Source: an uncultured Thiotrichales bacterium
GTDB taxonomy: Bacteria; Pseudomonadota; Gammaproteobacteria; HK1
Assembly (NCBI GenBank): GCA_964624765.1
Contig: CAZUZO010000002.1
Coordinates: 15,495-79,494 of the forward strand
Direction: 5' to 3'
Length of the DNA stretch: 64,000 nucleotides
The position numbers and the translations under genes are program-made. This document shows positions 5,019 to 42,873 of the stretch, in pieces. Position 1 is the first letter of the stretch, and every line of letters begins with the position of its first letter. Below the pieces are notes generated by a model, which worked only from the letters and a program-made list of their open reading frames with translations, searched no databases and was not told the DNA's origin.

Positions 5019-5261
5019 ATGGGAAATATGAAGACATACCGATGTTGGGCTGCAAGCTTGGGTATGAGCCTCAAACAGGCCACGACGGTCGCGGCGCAAA
5101 ATTCCACGTGGGCAGCGTATGAATATGCCGGCAAACTTCTCGAAGCGGGCAAGAATTTTGACTCGGTCGAGGTGTTCGTGTTGTCGGAACAGGGTCTCGT
5201 TAGGCGGTTCCACCTCAGCGGTGGGAAAGATGACGAGACCCTGTGTGCGCAGCGAAGGTAG
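5019..5261 (+). CDS. hypothetical small protein (80 aa)
   Basis: ORF with AGGGAAG a few nt upstream of the ATG, in a lower-GC patch. No homolog recognised. Confidence 0.3.
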   Translation: MGNMKTYRCWAASLGMSLKQATTVAAQNSTWAAYEYAGKLLEAGKNFDSVEVFVLSEQGLVRRFHLSGGKDDETLCAQRR

Positions 5262-5269
5262 GGAGTGAT

Positions 5270-5334
5270 GAAAATTTAGTGCGCCACCGTGTGCCTTGCT
5301 CTGCCGGCGCTCGTGACATCTTTAAAACAGCTTC
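5270..5334 (-). repeat. type-1 element fragment (core arm plus terminus only, reverse orientation)
   Basis: CACCGTGTGCCTTGCTCTGCCGGCGCTCGTGACATCTTTAAAACAGCTTC is the reverse complement of the type-1 left end (GAAGCTGTTTTAAA..GTCACGAGCGCCGGCAGAGCAAGGC). Confidence 0.7.
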
Positions 5335-5852
5335 GCAAGGGTACGGCGTTGGGCCTGCCCGCGGGGATATCTTGGGTCATGGACAGCGGATCGGTGGCTG
5401 GCCACGCCCGGATTGCCTACCCCGAACCCCTGCCGCTGCCCATGGCGAGTTTAGGTCTCCCGTCCCAGGGAGCTCAGTCGATGCAGTGACATTAAGGGCC
5501 TCATCTTAGCACTCATGATCGGGGTGGCACTTTGCTCCCTGCTGGTCAGGGTGCCGAACGATCGGCTGCTTCGCTAGCGTAGACTGAAGTCCCCAGCGGG
5601 CTATGACCATTGGCCGCCGCCATCGTTGCTTCGAATTTCCTCTTCGGAACCCCCCAACCCGCGCCCAAGTCTGTGTCGCCGAACCCCTGGCGGCAAGGTT
5701 CCTCTGCGCGAGGTAGAATCGTTACCGAATCGCGTACGCGAATGAAGTGCACGGTAACCCCAAGGCAAAAGACCTCGAGTGCCGAACAGAGGCCTTGGCT
5801 CCATCATCCGGGATTGCCCGCGCTGCCTTCCTTGTAACCCTGGAAATCCACC

Positions 5853-16227: not shown

Positions 16228-16310
16228 GAACGCAATACGCGCTGTTTCGGCTGCGCCCGATAGCGGTAGCCTTAACGGCTCCGGTGAAGGACGTGATAGT
16301 GTTCGGCTGA

Positions 16311-16431
16311 GAGGTTGTCAAAAAACCGGCGCGAGCGGGCCGCGGCGACGGAACCTATCAGATAGATAGGCGAGGAGTGAGCACCGCCCAACGCCGCTAT
16401 CGGGTGGTGTAGCAGGTTTCTTCACAACCTC
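16311..16431 (+). mobile_element. type-2 inverted-repeat element (121 bp; core arm on the left, as in type 1)
   Basis: GAGGTTGTCAAAAAACCGGCGCGAGCGG...CCTATCAGATAGATAGG...GCAGGTTTCTTCACAACCTC. TGA lies at 16308-16310 and, offset by 1 nt, at 16433-16435. Confidence 0.85.
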
Positions 16432-16562
16432 TTGAGTGGAAGTACCGGCGAGGCCTACCCAGTACCTAGGGCGCCCAGTTCGCTGCATCGGTGCGACGGT
16501 TTTCATGGTGTGATTGCGCAGTATGAGTAGGTATGCTGTCTCAATTGTTAGGAGTAGAACGT

Positions 16563-22775: not shown

Positions 22776-22925
22776 GAGTTGAGTCTCTCAGAGAACCGTC
22801 GCAAGCGGGCCGAGAGAGCTAGGCGGATGGCGTGAAGCTGGGAGACATAATCAGGTAGATAGGCGAGCCGCCGAGCACCGCACAACACCGCTGCCGCGTT
22901 ACGTAGCGCGTTTTTTCAAAAGCTC
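22776..22925 (+). mobile_element. type-2 inverted-repeat element, left terminus degenerate (150 bp)
   Basis: GAGTTGAGTCTCTCAGAGAACCGTCGCAAGCGGGCCGAGAG...GGTAGATAGGCGAG...GCGTTTTTTCAAAAGCTC aligns along its whole length with the reverse complement of 42074-42214. TGA lies at 22773-22775. Confidence 0.7.
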
Positions 22926-27854: not shown

Positions 27855-27876
27855 GGAAATGATCGGCGTAAACTCA

Positions 27877-28017
27877 GAGGTTGTGAAAAAACCTGCTACA
27901 CGACCCGATAGCGGCGTTGGGAGGTGCTCGCTCCTCGCCTATGCATCTGATAGGTCTCTCGGCTTCGCGCCGTCCGCCTGGCTCTCGGGCCGTTCGCGAC
28001 GGTCTTTCTACAACCTG
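27877..28017 (-). mobile_element. type-2 inverted-repeat element (141 bp; orientation opposite to the type-1 core arm)
   Basis: GAGGTTGTGAAAAAACCTGCTACACGACCCGATAGCGGCGTTGGG...CGTTCGCGACGGTCTTTCTACAACCTG. Flanked by TCA (27874-27876) and TCA (28018-28020). It ends 5 nt before the ABC ATPase ATG. Confidence 0.9.
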
Positions 28018-28022
28018 TCAGC

Positions 28023-30602: not shown

Positions 30603-30836
30603 ATGGCTATTCGGGTCCGTTACTTTGCTAGCTTGAGGGAGCGCATGGGGCGAGCCGAGGATCGCCTGGACGTGGGACGGATCACCACGGTGGAGGACGT
30701 CTGGCGCAAAGTTTCGGGTGAAAGGGCTTTGCCGGCGAACACGCTCATGGCGATCAATATGCAATATGCAGACAGCACTCAGCGGGTCTGCGACGGAGAC
30801 GAAGTGGCCTTTTTTCCGCCGGTGACGGGGGGCTGA
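30603..30836 (+). CDS. moaD: MoaD/ThiS-family sulfur carrier (molybdopterin synthase small subunit-like)
   Basis: MAIRVRYFASLRERMG...DGDEVAFFPPVTGG ends in the diagnostic GG. The track ORF start at 30573 overlaps the HAD gene, so ATG 30603 is preferred. No moaE is adjacent. Confidence 0.8.
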   Translation: MAIRVRYFASLRERMGRAEDRLDVGRITTVEDVWRKVSGERALPANTLMAINMQYADSTQRVCDGDEVAFFPPVTGG

Positions 30837-30966
30837 GAGGTTGTGAAAAAACCGTAGCGAGCGGCCCGAGAGCAAGGCGGAACGCTGTTCAAAATCGTGC
30901 CAGACGATTTTGTCGCCGCCGTGCGCCTTGCTCTGCCGGCGCGCGCGACAGTTTTACAACAGCTTG
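30837..30966. mobile_element. hybrid type-2/type-1 element, near-perfect 130-bp palindrome
   Basis: Left half has the type-2 terminus and core arm (GAGGTTGTGAAAAAACCGTAGCGAGCGGCCCGAGAGCAAGGCGG). The centre is a CAAAATCGT-GCCAG-ACGATTTTG hairpin. The right half is the reverse complement of the type-1 left end (GCGCCTTGCTCTGCCGGCGCGCGCGACAGTTTTACAACAGCTTG). It fills exactly the gap between the moaD stop (30834-30836) and the kinase stop (30967-30969). Confidence 0.85.
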
Positions 30967-32262
30967 TTAGGGGTGATTGGTGACGAGCCGGCCGGTTGTT
31001 GAGCCTAGACGATCGATTAGGATGGCCACAAAGGCTTGATAGAAGCGGTGCTGACAATGCGCTGAGGTGGCATTGAGGAGCCCTGTGTTGACCCGCAGCG
31101 CTGAGACGCGGGTTTGCGCGATCACGTTAGCACTGCGCTTTCGTTTACCTAACGCGCCCATTTCGCCGAAGCAATCCCCAACACTCAGGGTCGCGATGGT
31201 AGCCTCGCCTCGTCGCACGAGGACGCTTCCGGAGGCAATGATAAAGAAGTCTGCGGCAGTCTCCCCTTCTAGGAGGATGTTCACCCCCGCCGCGAATTCC
31301 TGCCAGGTGCTGGCATGGATTACCTCGGCTATCTCAGAGCGCGAGAAATCCGTAAAGAAACGAAGTTTCGCGATGCGCTCGAAGGAGGTCTGGTCGGTTA
31401 GCTTTTTGCTCCGGCGCCGAGAGCTGTCTAACACGAGGCTGAGATCTCCGGCCAAATCCATACCAGTCTTGTAGCGGTCTTGTGGATGCTTTTGCAGTGC
31501 TCGATGCAGGATTCGTCCTACCAGGGGCGAGACATCGGGCCTTAGAGCTTTGACCGATTGGGGGTGCTCGTGAAGGATGCGATGCGCGATGGAGGCCAGG
31601 GTATGGCTGGCGAAAGGATGCTGGCCCGTGAGTAGCTCGTACATGACGACGCCGAGGGAGAAGAGGTCGGTTTGCGGGTTGACGATCTCCTCGCGTACCT
31701 GTTCTGGTGACATATATAGTGGAGAGCCGACATAGCCCAAGAACTGGGTGTTGGTGACATCGAGCTGAGAGGCGATGGCGATGCCAAAATCCCCGATTTT
31801 GACGTCTTGGGATTCGGTCAGCAGAATATTTCTCGGCTTGATGTCGCGGTGAACGACTCCATTTCGGTGGGCGTAGTCCAGTGCCACGGCGCAGTTTCGG
31901 ACGGCGTTGATGACGTCTCTAATGGGCAGCAGGCTAGCGGGTTGACAGTGCGCTTGCAGCGTACGCCCCCCTGGAATGTATTCCATGACAAGGTAGTAGA
32001 GGTCGTCGACGATGCCTGCGTCATAGACGGAAACGATGTTGGGGTGTTGCAGTATCTTGGCGATCTTGGCCTCATTGAAGAAAAGCTTACGGTAGCGTTC
32101 GCCCTCCTCAGCGTGATGCAGGACTTCCGGATGGGCCACCTTGATCGCGACCTCCTGATGGGTTAAGGGATCGTGGCCGAGGTATACGCTACCCATATTC
32201 CCGCGCCCGATTGGTTTGACGATAAAGTACTGCCCAAGGGTGCGGTTTTCTAAGCCTTCCAT
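30967..32262 (-). CDS. Ser/Thr protein kinase with C-terminal cyclic-nucleotide-binding domain
   Basis: Kinase motifs GRGNMGSVY, AIKV, HRDIKPRNIL, DFG and SPEQ. The C-terminal CAP_ED-like domain contains GDCFGEMGAL. The track ORF starts at TTG 32406, but ATG 32262 (MEGLENRTLGQY) is preferred. Confidence 0.85.
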   Translation of the reverse strand: MEGLENRTLGQYFIVKPIGRGNMGSVYLGHDPLTHQEVAIKVAHPEVLHHAEEGERYRKLFFNEAKIAKILQHPNIVSVYDAGIVDDLYYLVMEYIPGGRTLQAHCQPASLLPIRDVINAVRNCAVALDYAHRNGVVHRDIKPRNILLTESQDVKIGDFGIAIASQLDVTNTQFLGYVGSPLYMSPEQVREEIVNPQTDLFSLGVVMYELLTGQHPFASHTLASIAHRILHEHPQSVKALRPDVSPLVGRILHRALQKHPQDRYKTGMDLAGDLSLVLDSSRRRSKKLTDQTSFERIAKLRFFTDFSRSEIAEVIHASTWQEFAAGVNILLEGETAADFFIIASGSVLVRRGEATIATLSVGDCFGEMGALGKRKRSANVIAQTRVSALRVNTGLLNATSAHCQHRFYQAFVAILIDRLGSTTGRLVTNHP

Positions 32263-40678: not shown

Positions 40679-42073
40679 ATGTACATCCAATTCCTTTGGC
40701 CGGTGCTGTTGGCTTTGGCTCTCCTGAGCGGCCCCACTTTCGCTACACCGACCATTCAGCATTGGACCACAGCCAATGGCGCCCGAGTGTACTTCGTGGC
40801 TGCCCACGAGCTGCCTCTGGTGGACATGAGGCTGGTATTCGATGCCGGTAGCGCTCGCGACCAGGACCTTCCGGGGCTAGCACGGTTCACGAATTTGATG
40901 CTGCAAGAGGGTGCCGGCCCCCATGATGCGGATACCGTTGCGGAGCGTCTAGCGGCGTTAGGTGCCGAGCTGACTACCGACTCGGGACGGGACATGGCCT
41001 GGGTCAGCCTGCGGGTTTTGAGTGATCCGGTGGTTCGGGATCCAGCCGTTGAGCTGCTGGGGCTGATCGCCGCCCAACCCGCTTTGACAGCGGAAGCGCT
41101 GAGGCGGGTGCGCGGACAGCTGCTCGTAAAGTTGCGAGCCGAGCAACAATCCCCGGCCGATGTGGCCAGTCGTGCCTTCTACACCCATGTTTTTGGCGAT
41201 CACCCCTACGCATTGCCACCGAGCGGGACGGAGGCGAGCATTTCGGCCATCGAGGTGTCTGATCTAAAGCGATTTCACCAGCGCTACTATGTGAGCCAAA
41301 ACACGGTGGTGGTGATCGTCGGTGATCTGGATCGGGCACAGGCAGAGTTGCTGGCTACCAGGGCCGTTGCCAAGCTTTCTTCAGGTGAGCCTGCCTCGGC
41401 ACTGCCCGCAGCGCCTTCCGTCGAGGCGTCGAGCGAGCGTTCTATCGACTTCCCCTCGGCGCAAACACATATTCTCGTGGGCCAACCCGCCATATCGCGG
41501 CTGCATGACGATTACTATGCGCTTTATGTGGGCAATCACGTCCTTGGAGGCGGGGGCCTCGTATCGTTGCTATTCGAAGAGATACGGGCACGTCGAGGGT
41601 TAGCCTACAGCGTGGGGAGCTACGTCATCCCGATGCGCGCCGAAGGACCTTACATTATGGGTTTGCAGACGCAAGGAGAGCAGGCGGCCAAGGCCGTGGA
41701 GTTGATGCGGGGGTTGCTGAAGGATTTTGTGAAAAAGGGTCCGACAGCGGAACAGCTGCAAGCGGCGAAGAAAAACATCACCGGCGGTTTTCCCCTTCGC
41801 CTCGACAGCAATCACAAGATACTGGGCCATGTGGCCACTATCGGTTTCTACGGATTGCCACTTGATCACCTTGACACGTTTTCTGCGCGTATCGACGCGG
41901 TCACGGTGGAGGACGTGCGCAGCGTTTTTGCCCGCCATATCGATCCGCAGCGGTTGGTCACCGTCATGGTCGGACCGAGCGGAGGCGCAAGTGTCCCATC
42001 GTCCAAGGCTAGGGAAGTCGGTATTCCGGCTAACCACGGACATTCGATCCCGAGGGATTTCATCGAGCAGTGA
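40679..42073 (+). CDS. M16 family peptidase-like protein (no HxxEH; likely non-catalytic partner)
   Basis: 464 aa with signal peptide and M16/M16_C fold-like sequence. It is paired with the upstream gene. Confidence 0.9.
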   Translation: MYIQFLWPVLLALALLSGPTFATPTIQHWTTANGARVYFVAAHELPLVDMRLVFDAGSARDQDLPGLARFTNLMLQEGAGPHDADTVAERLAALGAELTTDSGRDMAWVSLRVLSDPVVRDPAVELLGLIAAQPALTAEALRRVRGQLLVKLRAEQQSPADVASRAFYTHVFGDHPYALPPSGTEASISAIEVSDLKRFHQRYYVSQNTVVVIVGDLDRAQAELLATRAVAKLSSGEPASALPAAPSVEASSERSIDFPSAQTHILVGQPAISRLHDDYYALYVGNHVLGGGGLVSLLFEEIRARRGLAYSVGSYVIPMRAEGPYIMGLQTQGEQAAKAVELMRGLLKDFVKKGPTAEQLQAAKKNITGGFPLRLDSNHKILGHVATIGFYGLPLDHLDTFSARIDAVTVEDVRSVFARHIDPQRLVTVMVGPSGGASVPSSKAREVGIPANHGHSIPRDFIEQ

Positions 42074-42214
42074 GAGCTTGTGAAAAAACCTGCTACACAG
42101 CCCGATAGCGGCGTTGGGCGGTGCTCGCTCCTCGCCTATCTATTTGATATGTCTCGTCGCTGCGCGCCGTCCGCCTTGCTTTCGTGCCGCTCGCGACGGT
42201 TTTTTCACAAGCTC
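42074..42214 (-). mobile_element. type-2 inverted-repeat element (141 bp, perfect 17-bp termini)
   Basis: GAGCTTGTGAAAAAACC...GGTTTTTTCACAAGCTC. Flanked by TGA 42071-42073 (the stop codon of the M16 gene) and TGA 42215-42217. Confidence 0.9.
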
Positions 42215-42270
42215 TGAGTGCTGAGCCAAACCGGTGTCGCCGTGCGAAAAGTGTGTCGCCCGCAGGGGAA

Positions 42271-42873
42271 ATGTCGGTGAAACGGCAGGCCTCGGGCCGA
42301 GTCCGCATTATTGCGGGTCAATGGAAAAGAAGACATCTCGTATTTCCGGCGCGCCCGGCGCTACGCCCGACACCCGATCGCGTCCGAGAAACGCTGTTCA
42401 ACTGGCTCGGGCCGCAGGTGCAAGGCGCACGCTGTTTGGATCTCTTTGCCGGGAGCGGTGCGCTTGGCTTTGAGGCAGCCTCGCGAGGGGCGAGCCATGT
42501 GGTGATGGTGGAGCGAGATGAGGCTCTGATCCACTACCTCAGCGCGCAAGCCCTGGCCCTGGATGCGAACAATGTGGCAGTGATGGGCGAGGACGTTTTG
42601 CGTTGGTTGCAACGCAAGCGCCCGGTAGCACTGGCACCATTCGACCTGGTATTCATCGATCCGCCGTTTAGGAGCGAGCTTTGGACGCTGCTGTGTGGCT
42701 ATTTGGAGCAGGGCAGCTGGCTCCAAGATGGGGCGCTGGTATACCTAGAGAGGCCTTGGAGTAGGGCGCAGCCAGTATTACCCGCCAACTGGGGCTTGAC
42801 ACGGTCCGGACGCGCTGGCCAAGTCGGTTATTATCTGTGCAGGCGATGCCCAGGGCCTCGCGTTTCCGATTGA
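42271..42873 (+). CDS. rsmD: 16S rRNA (guanine966-N2)-methyltransferase RsmD
   Basis: GRVRIIAGQWKRRHLVFPARPALRPTPDRVRETLFNWL, DLFAGSGALGFEAASRGA, FIDPPF. AGGGGAA precedes ATG 42271. The track ORF start lies inside the repeat. Confidence 0.85.
   Translation: MSVKRQASGRVRIIAGQWKRRHLVFPARPALRPTPDRVRETLFNWLGPQVQGARCLDLFAGSGALGFEAASRGASHVVMVERDEALIHYLSAQALALDANNVAVMGEDVLRWLQRKRPVALAPFDLVFIDPPFRSELWTLLCGYLEQGSWLQDGALVYLERPWSRAQPVLPANWGLTRSGRAGQVGYYLCRRCPGPRVSD

What the first reader, a model, noticed from the sequence alone, without database searches (positions are those of the whole stretch)
42074..42214. Second, homologous subfamily (type 2) with different termini and centre
Copies are at 16311-16431, 22776-22925, 27877-28017 and 42074-42214, with a small fragment near 16245-16275 (GCGCCCGATAGCGG). 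The termini are GAGCTTGTGAAAAAACC / GGTTTTTTCACAAGCTC, perfect over 17 bp in the 42074 copy. The centre is a CCTATC-N5-GATAGG palindrome. One arm (CCGTCGCGAGCGGCACGAAAGCAAGGCGGACGG, read on the reverse strand of the 42074 copy) is clearly homologous to the type-1 core arm. The other arm (CCCGATAGCGGCGTTGGGCGGTGCTC) aligns with the reverse complement of the type-1 right arm (GAGCTGCGTTGCGCAGCGGCTC). So types 1 and 2 are diverged versions of one ancestral element that swapped termini and central modules. Unlike type 1, the four type-2 copies occur in both orientations relative to the core arm. This weakens any simple orientation-dependent model.
Basis: seen in the sequence. Interest (0 to 1): 0.6.

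Follow-up and report, generated by a model that had tools for sequence, protein, structure and literature searches.

The report
IS5-type MITE with conserved hairpin core
The "type 2" repeat is a 141-bp gene-less miniature transposon (MITE) with insertion-sequence-like ends, an ordinary kind of element; the unusual part is that its folded ~105-nt core is shared by similar elements with quite different ends in many other bacteria.

Summary
The four type-2 copies are real. They belong to a family of about 490 loci (about 215 full length) in this 3.4-Mb draft genome.

**What it is.** The element is 141 bp, with 17-bp terminal inverted repeats GAGGTTGTGAAAAAACC. It inserts at C-T(C/G)A-G and duplicates the central three bases. 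At 42074 the duplicated TGA is the stop codon of the upstream peptidase gene. Two congeneric genomes have the empty site, with one TGA and 144 bp less. The ends and target match those of real IS5-family insertion sequences found in related genomes. No autonomous partner with matching ends was found in this assembly.

**Relation to type 1.** Type 2 is collinear over its full length with the reverse complement of type 1 (z = 8.8 against shuffles).

**Wider family.** Both types belong to a large superfamily:
- It was found in about a quarter of sampled genera of the class, in other Pseudomonadota classes, and in Nitrospirota MAGs.
- Members share a core of about 105 nt that folds into a hairpin maintained by compensatory changes.
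- The core is flanked by at least seven different terminal repeats, including the IS1246 end, and by 3- or 4-bp (possibly also 2-bp) duplications.

**Verdict.** This is a new variant of a known kind (MITE). Its orientation argument is not: genome-wide there is a 2:1 orientation bias. Why the core is conserved is unknown.

The parts
42071..42073 (+). Left target-site duplication TGA. It is also the stop codon of the M16-peptidase gene 40679-42073.
   Evidence: The empty sites in G001 and G002 carry a single TGA here.
42074..42090 (+). Left terminal inverted repeat GAGCTTGTGAAAAAACC.
   Evidence: The family consensus is GAGGTTGTGAAAAAACC. There are 729 hits with at most 3 mismatches in the genome.
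42091..42197 (+). Conserved core of about 107 nt. With the termini it folds into a long imperfect hairpin.
   Evidence: Fold energy -67.4 kcal/mol, z = -6.6. In the 19-sequence superfamily alignment, 94.9% of cells are paired against 78.6% in shuffles, and 20 of 34 pairs have compensatory changes.
42135..42151 (+). Central small hairpin CCTATC-TATTT-GATATG (the 'type-2 centre').
   Evidence: 127 of 214 copies have this exact pattern.
42198..42214 (+). Right terminal inverted repeat GGTTTTTTCACAAGCTC.
42215..42217 (+). Right target-site duplication TGA.
   Evidence: Genome-wide, the flanks are identical in 136 of 192 copies and the middle base agrees in 155 of 186.
27874..28020 (+). Second full copy (27877-28017) with TCA/TCA duplication.
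   Evidence: 132/141 to the consensus.
16308..16435 (-). Third copy (16311-16431), with a 20-nt internal deletion. One flank is TGA, the other T+TGA.
22776..22925 (-). Fourth, degenerate copy (76% identical to the consensus).
30834..30970 (+). Hybrid element. It has a type-2 terminus and arm on the left and the reverse complement of a type-1 arm and terminus on the right. The flanks differ (TGA and TTA).
   Evidence: (D11, I14, I20).

Best explanation

Proposed mechanism:
- The transposase would bind the 17-bp terminal inverted repeats (GAGGTTGTGAAAAAACC).
- It would cut the target C-T(C/G)A-G with a 3-nt stagger, so that T(C/G)A is duplicated on both sides.
- Every target contains TGA on one strand. 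An insertion exactly at a TGA stop codon therefore regenerates the stop and is tolerated. This is why copies such as 42074 abut genes.

The 107 nt between the termini is not IS-end DNA. It is a conserved hairpin-forming core that type 2 shares with type 1 and with a very widespread superfamily of elements. The termini of those elements have been exchanged among IS5-family types.

Shown: repeat family, TIRs, TSD, target, empty sites, homology to type 1, superfamily, covariation, and IS5-family ISs with the same end pattern and target. Inferred: which transposase moves it, whether it is still active, and what the core does.
For: - **Copy number and location.** There are 218 full-length copies and about 489 loci. 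213 of 214 full copies are intergenic.
- **Target-site duplication.** Flanks read C-T[C/G]A | GAGG...CCTC | T[C/G]A-G. The middle base agrees in 155 of 186 copies. A 5-bp duplication model is rejected: when the outer C or G deviates, the inner base does not follow, in 26/27 and 46/46 cases.
- **Empty sites.** The orthologous peptidase-rsmD spacers in two congeneric genomes are 144-145 bp shorter and hold a single TGA.
- **Real IS5-family ISs share the end pattern and target.** All three transposases below match NCBIfam NF033580 above its cut-off.
  - About 40 full-length copies (66 matches in all) of an 888-bp IS in G009: C-TWA-|GAGCCTGTTCAAGATC...|-TWA-G.
  - An IS in G164: C-TAA-|GAGCGTGTTTGAAAAATCG...|-TAA-G.
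  - An IS in this genome (C138): end GAAGCTGTTTGGAAAG, followed by TTA.
- **Type-2 termini elsewhere.** Elements with type-2 termini and TGA/TCA/TTA duplications occur in six other GTDB families.
- **Stop-codon use.** 30 of 192 copies use a duplication as the stop of an open frame of at least 100 codons, against 7% of all CTGAG sites.
- **Possible recent activity.** Up to five full copies are identical in sequence.
Against: - No autonomous IS with GAGGTTGTGAAAAAACC ends was found in this fragmented assembly. The 49 termini not followed by the core are deleted or solo copies.
- The one resident IS5-family IS (C138) matches the type-2 terminus at only about 9 of 16 positions. It matches type 1 at 13 of 16.
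- Ordinary MITE models do not predict a core that is conserved across phyla with compensatory changes while the termini are replaced.
- Mobility is inferred from comparative data only. No transposition event was observed.
Confidence: 0.85

Rival explanations
1. The core is the functional unit and the transposon ends are only its vehicle. The A-tract / GC-rich hairpin / T-tract architecture would act at the RNA level. It could be a bidirectional intrinsic terminator, or an mRNA 3'-end stabilising or processing hairpin. Host or element selection for that activity would explain core conservation and the orientation bias.
For: - Across 19 elements from distant taxa, mean column identity is 77% and 20 of 34 pairs have compensatory changes. 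94.9% of cells are paired, against 78.6% in shuffles and 36-50% with slid partners.
- Most terminus types keep AAAAA(CC)...(GG)TTTTT next to the hairpin.
- There is a 2:1 orientation bias relative to transcription, shared by types 1 and 2.
- A terminator-like site sits at 42182-42196 followed by TTTTTT.
- The subterminal DNA of IS1246 is unrelated to the core.
Against: - Copies are not enriched at gene 3' ends relative to the mix of intergenic contexts: 20% are divergent and 20% convergent, against 17% and 16% in the background.
- The two invariant G.U pairs favour the strand that is in the mRNA in only one third of tandem contexts.
- Two terminus types (G498, G660) lack the A/T tracts.
- The terminator scan found 1 site against 0.5 expected.
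Confidence: 0.3
2. The core hairpin is required in cis for transposition. Folding of the palindrome in single-stranded DNA could bring the two ends together. Alternatively the core could hold a host-factor or transposase accessory site. Under this view it is conserved for the element's own benefit.
For: - Pairing is conserved by compensatory change in internal helices 3 and 5.
- The same core is kept while termini are exchanged among IS5-family subgroups.
- Conserved asymmetric motifs are present: CTGCGCG on one side and GCCGCTCGCKACGG on the other.
Against: - A 45-bp mini-derivative made of termini only exists (G000:C81:11116-11160).
- Many internally deleted copies exist, such as 16311-16431, so the core may not be needed for at least some insertions. 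These may, however, be post-insertion deletions.
- As far as I know, IS5-family transposition is not known to need internal hairpins (background knowledge, not tested).
Confidence: 0.25
3. The repeats are REP/REPIN-like palindromes spread by a RAYT (Y1) transposase, not by a DDE transposase.
For: The genome has four Y1_Tnp (PF01797) matches, and the elements are long palindromes.
Against: - True target duplications of fixed length are present, which Y1 transposases do not make.
- The Y1 genes are not flanked by the elements. There is one weak model match in 5.3 kb around three of them, which is about the genome-wide density.
- Termini match IS5-family IS ends.
Confidence: 0.02
4. The similarity of type 2 to type 1 is only what GC-rich, low-complexity sequence gives by chance.
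For: None beyond the GC-richness of the arms.
Against: - The global alignment gives z = 8.8, and 6.8 without the termini. The signal is orientation-specific.
- Both types align in one 19-member superfamily alignment.
- A covariance model built from that alignment finds full-length matches in 94 of 400 genomes at E <= 1e-5.
Confidence: 0.01

Closest known systems
IS5-family-derived bacterial MITEs (for example BrickBuilt of Porphyromonas gingivalis, PMC4596501) and, in eukaryotes, Tourist MITEs of the related PIF/Harbinger superfamily
   Same: Short, non-coding, multi-copy and intergenic. Terminal inverted repeats resemble IS5-family ends. A 3-bp TNA duplication lies inside a short palindromic target (C-TNA-G). 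Mobilisation in trans is presumed.
   Different: The interior is not a random remnant of the IS. It is a core of about 105 nt conserved across phyla with compensatory base-pair changes. The same core is combined with at least seven terminus types. No matching autonomous element was found in the same genome.
IS1246 (IS5 family) of Pseudomonas putida plasmid pWW0
   Same: Its left end, GGGCACCTCGAAAAACC, is identical to the terminus of the commonest superfamily members (Massilia, Paraherbaspirillum, Troglogloeales and others). These members carry 4-bp duplications. The inner GAAAAACC is also shared with the type-2 terminus.
   Different: The outer 8-9 nt of type 2 (GAGGTTGT) differ, and type 2 makes 3-bp rather than 4-bp duplications. 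The subterminal DNA of IS1246 has no similarity to the core.
Correia repeat-enclosed elements (CREE/NEMIS) of Neisseria
   Same: A hairpin-forming MITE of 100-157 bp, in hundreds of copies, intergenic and often abutting genes. It has an A/T-rich inner terminus followed by CC/GG, and no known autonomous parent. The interior shows orientation-specific marginal sequence similarity: GGCGTTGC..CTCGC..GTAC-N-ATTTGTACTGTCT..GGCTTC..CGCCTTG (z = 4.4 to type 2, 5.5 to L098; model E = 0.001-0.06).
   Different: Correia termini (TATAGTGGATTAA...) are unrelated (PMC5039591 for the terminal repeats) and, from background knowledge, flanked by a TA duplication. Similarity to two other superfamily members is nil. 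Unrelated Neisseria hairpins score as high with the model. Membership is therefore not established.
ERIC (enterobacterial repetitive intergenic consensus)
   Same: A structured intergenic MITE-like repeat of about 127 bp.
   Different: No sequence similarity. The local alignment z is at most 1.1 in either orientation against type 2, type 1 and a Troglogloeales member.

Membership tests
MITE (miniature inverted-repeat transposable element) | Short (under about 300 bp) with no coding capacity | tested here: met
   The modal length is 141 bp (115 of 192 copies). That is too short for a transposase.
MITE (miniature inverted-repeat transposable element) | Terminal inverted repeats | tested here: met
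   17 of 17 positions match in the 42074 copy. The consensus terminus is conserved at 80% or more at most positions.
MITE (miniature inverted-repeat transposable element) | Target-site duplication of fixed length | tested here: met
   The duplication is the 3-bp T(C/G)A. Flanks are identical in 136 of 192 copies against about 68 expected (my calculation from the counts). The 5-bp model is rejected.
MITE (miniature inverted-repeat transposable element) | High copy number, dispersed | tested here: met
   There are about 489 loci on most contigs. Types 1 and 2 together make up 2.9% of the assembly.
MITE (miniature inverted-repeat transposable element) | Presence/absence polymorphism (empty site = one copy of the target) | tested here: met
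   G001 and G002 lack exactly element + 3 bp at the 42074 site.
MITE (miniature inverted-repeat transposable element) | Autonomous element with the same termini | tested here: inconclusive
   None with GAGGTTGTGAAAAAACC ends was found in this assembly. Related IS5-family ISs with the same end pattern exist here and in relatives. The assembly is broken at the repeats: 154 of 436 contig ends fall in an element.
IS5-family-type ends and target | Ends beginning GA/GG with an inner A-rich block, and a 3-bp TNA duplication in C-TNA-G, as in bona fide IS5-family ISs | tested here: met
   The ISs of G009 and G164 show both features and the C138 IS shows the end pattern followed by TTA. All three have transposases matching NF033580. 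Type 2 has the same pattern.
IS5-family-type ends and target | Mobilisation by an IS5-family transposase | not testable with these tools
   This needs a transposition assay.
Correia element (CREE/NEMIS) | 26-bp Correia terminal repeat TATAGTGGATTAA... and a TA duplication | tested here: not met
   Type-2 termini and duplication differ. Correia termini are taken from PMC5039591 and loci L180-L185.
Correia element (CREE/NEMIS) | Homologous interior | tested here: inconclusive
   z = 4.4-5.5 against two members and about 0 against two others. Model E = 0.001-0.06, no better than unrelated hairpins.
ERIC | Sequence similarity to the ERIC consensus | tested here: not met
   z is at most 1.1. blastn against E. 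coli genomes found no match.
REP/REPIN | Association with a RAYT gene, and no target duplication | tested here: not met
   Duplications are present. The Y1 genes are not bracketed by the elements.
Any curated RNA family (Rfam 15) | Match at the gathering score | tested here: not met
   There is no match in the window, in the element at a permissive threshold, or in ten loci of other superfamily members.

The most novel reading that the evidence does not exclude
The ~105-nt hairpin core is a functional module in its own right. It could be a bidirectional terminator, an RNA-processing hairpin, or a cis-acting transposition enhancer. It has repeatedly been re-fitted with the terminal repeats of different IS5-family subgroups: at least seven terminus types, with 3- and 4-bp duplications and possibly 2-bp ones. 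In this way it has spread through about a quarter of the genera of the GTDB class Gammaproteobacteria, other Pseudomonadota classes and Nitrospirota. The Neisseria Correia elements may be a distant branch. As a named superfamily this appears to be undescribed.
Probability: 0.3. Interest if true: 0.7.

Novelty: new variant of a known kind. Interest (0 to 1): 0.45.

Why it matters
On its own, another MITE family is routine annotation. It explains the dense intergenic repeats here, why the assembly breaks into 218 contigs, and why several genes end exactly at a repeat.

The less routine point is the conserved, covarying core carried between interchangeable IS5-type ends in hundreds of bacterial lineages. 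If the core has a function, at the RNA level or in transposition, it would be a widely distributed regulatory or cis-acting module that current annotation (Rfam and the papers searched) does not name. It might also give the orphan Correia elements a family and a candidate transposase class.

A covariance model of the superfamily would be immediately useful for masking and annotating these repeats in proteobacterial genomes and MAGs.

Tried and rejected
- **Rfam.** Searched at gathering and permissive thresholds on the window, on the element, and on ten loci of other members. Nothing was found.
There is no similarity for type 2, the short form of type 1, or a Troglogloeales member.
- **5-bp CTSAG duplication model.** Rejected.
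- **TIR pairs 600-4000 bp apart as candidate parents.** All were separate MITE ends flanking ordinary genes.
- **Termini not followed by the core.** These were deleted or solo copies, and no IS was found.
- **A 1.1-kb TIR pair in G009.** It turned out to be two MITEs around a RadC gene.
- **Plasmid collection.** It gave one Nitrosomonas plasmid hit and no IS ends.
- **Literature searches.** Searches for sequence strings of the core and for the target motif found nothing relevant.
- **RAYT association.** Not supported.
- **Fragment at 16245-16275.** Not significant.
- **Organism identity.** It was not established. The window protein is on Logan contigs of two metagenome runs. The family-level relative G009 is WLWT01, 'Gammaproteobacteria bacterium MH-Pat-all_autometa_1-5'.

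Full report
**Observation.** The four reported copies are present. A MAFFT alignment shows them to be one family, and also picks up a hybrid element at about 30831-30983.

The window lies in a 3.39-Mb, 218-contig, 59% G+C assembly. Key numbers for the family:
- blastn with the 42074 copy gives 503 HSPs and 218 full-length matches.
- After merging there are about 489 type-2 loci (52 kb) and about 336 type-1 loci (47 kb). Together they make up 2.9% of the assembly.
- 154 of 436 contig ends fall inside an element, so the counts are minima.
- The consensus is C-TCA-GAGGTTGTGAAAAAACC-[107 nt]-GGTTTTTTCACAACCTC-TCA-G.
- Median identity of full copies to the consensus is 91.5%. Up to five copies are identical.

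- The 'fragment' at 16245-16275 is an 11-nt match that is not above shuffled controls.
- The central palindrome is perfect in only 7 of 214 copies. The consensus is CCTATC-N5-GATATG.
- The 16311 copy has a 20-nt deletion, and the 22776 copy is degenerate.

**Mobility signature.** In 186-192 full copies the flanks read C-T[C/G]A before the element and T[C/G]A-G after it.
- The three flanking bases are identical on both sides in 136 of 192 copies. By my calculation from the counts, about 68 would be expected if the sides were independent. TCA occurs 83 times and TGA 41 times.
- The ambiguity between a 3-bp and a 5-bp duplication was resolved. When the outer C or G deviates, the adjacent inner base of the element does not change (26/27 and 46/46 cases). 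The duplication is therefore 3 bp and the target preference is CTSAG.
- At the 42074 site, the orthologous spacers in two congeneric genomes (G001:C6, G002:C185) are 144-145 bp shorter. They contain one TGA, the stop codon of the M16-peptidase gene, where the window has TGA-element-TGA. This is a classical filled-versus-empty site comparison.

**Context.** With it:
- 213 of 214 full copies are intergenic.
- Tandem, divergent and convergent contexts occur roughly in proportion to the background.
- 30 of 192 copies use one duplication as the stop codon of an open frame of at least 100 codons, against 7% of all CTGAG sites.
- In tandem contexts there is a 2:1 orientation bias: 77:39, p = 5e-4. 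Type 1 shows the same bias when oriented homologously (55:30). Combined, p = 1e-5.
- The 2:1 excess of TCA over TGA holds in both orientation classes. It is therefore a property of the element and its target, not of gene direction.

**Relation to type 1.** The type-2 consensus aligns over its full length with the reverse complement of the type-1 short consensus. There are 97 identities, z = 8.8 against dinucleotide shuffles, and z = 6.8 without the termini. The opposite relative orientation gives no signal (z = -1.7).

**Which transposase family.** Pfam DDE_Tnp_1 matches in the genome led to an IS at the start of contig C138. Its end reads GAAGCTGTTTGGAAAG and is followed by TTA. They also led to an IS982-like fragment on C4 ending GAAGCTGTTTTAACGT. 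Both resemble the type-1 terminus more than the type-2 terminus.

Searching relatives with the C138 transposase gave two further ISs:
- G009 has about 40 full-length copies (66 matches in all) of an 888-bp IS that reads C-TWA-|GAGCCTGTTCAAGATC...GATCTTGAACAGGTTC|-TWA-G.
- G164 has an IS that reads C-TAA-|GAGCGTGTTTGAAAAATCG...|-TAA-G.

All three transposases match NCBIfam NF033580 (IS5 family) above its cut-off. Bona fide IS5-family ISs in this bacterial family and class therefore share three features with type 2: the end pattern (GA[GA]NNTGT...GAAAAA), the C-TNA-G target (not testable for C138, where one end runs off the contig), and the 3-bp duplication. No IS with the exact type-2 ends was found here.

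**The superfamily.**
The organisms include Massilia, Janthinobacterium, Duganella, Paraherbaspirillum, Herbaspirillum, Ferrigenium, Gallionella, Nitrosomonadales, Rhodocyclales, Azonexus, Tepidiphilus, Marinobacterium, G009 (WLWT01), and Candidatus Troglogloeales MAGs. The last belong to phylum Nitrospirota, but MAG binning errors cannot be excluded.
- *Termini of those elements.* Most of them have termini GGGCACCTC[G/T]AAAAACC and 4-bp duplications of arbitrary sequence: 27 of 66 are perfect. The subterminal DNA of IS1246 is unrelated to the core.
- *Alignment and structure.* A 19-member alignment (A2) has 77% mean column identity. RNAalifold and pair counting give 34 pairs with 94.9% of cells paired, against 78.6% in shuffles (0 of 500 reach the observed value) and 36-50% with slid partners. 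Twenty pairs show changes on both sides, including pairs in internal helices 3 and 5.
- *Distribution.* A covariance model built from A2 finds full-length matches in 94 of 400 sampled genomes of the class, or 80 of 321 genera, at E <= 1e-5. It also finds matches in 27 genomes of other classes of the phylum at E <= 1e-8.
- *Terminus types.* Fetching 25 hits showed these terminus types:
  - Type-2 termini with TGA/TCA/TTA duplications in six other GTDB families (G137, G117, G418, G263, G201, G062, G164, G331).
  - Type-1-like termini (G266, G136).
  - GCAGGCTGTTGAAAAAC with C-TA-G flanks (G151, G289, G105).
  - GGAAACCCTGAACAAATGG (G218, G297).
  - Two more types in complete genomes (G498, G660).
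- *Module combinations.* The two centre types occur in different combinations with these termini. The type-2 centre goes with IS1246-type ends in L071, L068 and L120. The type-1-like centre goes with type-2 ends in G201, G062, G164 and G331.

**What is known.**
- Rfam 15 has no family for any of these elements.
- Sequence strings of the core occur in no paper of the library.
- ERIC is unrelated.
- Full-length Correia elements were taken from Neisseria prophage contigs. They show an orientation-specific but marginal similarity of the interior: z = 4.4 to type 2, 5.5 to L098, and nil to two other members. Model E-values are 0.001-0.06, no better than Neisseria uptake-sequence hairpins. I record this as a lead, not a finding.
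- The RAYT/REPIN alternative is disfavoured.

**Mechanism and uncertainty.** The best-supported reading (0.85) is an IS5-family-type MITE.
- *Shown:* the family, its ends, its target and duplication, an empty site, the homology with type 1, the superfamily and its covariation, and the existence of IS5-family ISs with the same end and target grammar.
- *Inferred:* trans-mobilisation by such a transposase, and current activity.
- *Unexplained:*
  - Why the core is conserved while the termini are exchanged.
  - Why two invariant G.U pairs favour the strand that is less often transcribed.
  - The TCA:TGA asymmetry.
- Two non-exclusive explanations of the core are given as rivals: an RNA-level terminator or stability hairpin, and a cis-acting DNA hairpin for transposition.

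**Verdict.** The element is a new variant of a known kind. Interest is moderate (0.45). A MITE is ordinary, but the widely distributed, covarying core with interchangeable IS5-type ends seems undescribed and deserves a proper survey.

Noticed in passing
window 30834-30970: Hybrid element. A type-2 terminus and arm is joined to the reverse complement of a type-1 arm and terminus, around a piece of the type-1 long-form insert. The flanks differ (TGA and TTA), so it is probably a recombinant or two abutting half-elements rather than one insertion.
   Followed up: partly
G000:C81:11116-11160 (outside the window): A 45-bp mini-derivative, GAGGTTGTGAAAAAACCTGCTACGCGACGGTTTTTTCACAACCTC. It consists of the type-2 termini with almost no core and is flanked by TCA.
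   Followed up: no
G000:C138:1-868 and G000:C4:~5100-5689: An IS5-family IS with a frameshifted transposase (end GAAGCTGTTTGGAAAG, followed by TTA) and an IS982-like fragment ending GAAGCTGTTTTAACGT. Both resemble the type-1 terminus and are candidate partners for type 1.
   Followed up: partly
whole assembly (G000): 154 of 436 contig ends fall inside a type-1 or type-2 element. These repeats are the main reason the assembly is fragmented, and copy numbers are underestimates.
   Followed up: yes
L028:7108-7390 (JALYUM010000059.1, Pseudomonadota MAG): Three head-to-tail copies of a superfamily member at 131-133-bp spacing, forming a short tandem array rather than dispersed copies.
   Followed up: no
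L134-L142 (G009 = WLWT01, 'Gammaproteobacteria bacterium MH-Pat-all_autometa_1-5'): About 40 near-identical copies of an 888-bp IS5-family IS with TWA duplications in CTWAG. This indicates a recent IS expansion in a 7-Mb genome.
   Followed up: partly
G000:C20:604-927, C196:2394-2720, C77:10452-10775, C132:3077-3247: Four Y1 (IS200/RAYT-like) transposase matches, two of them with in-frame stops. They are not associated with the type-1 or type-2 elements.
   Followed up: partly
window 42184-42873: The longest ORF of the rsmD-like methyltransferase gene starts at a GTG inside the element's right arm (42184). The true start is probably downstream, since the congeneric genomes lack the element.
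   Followed up: no
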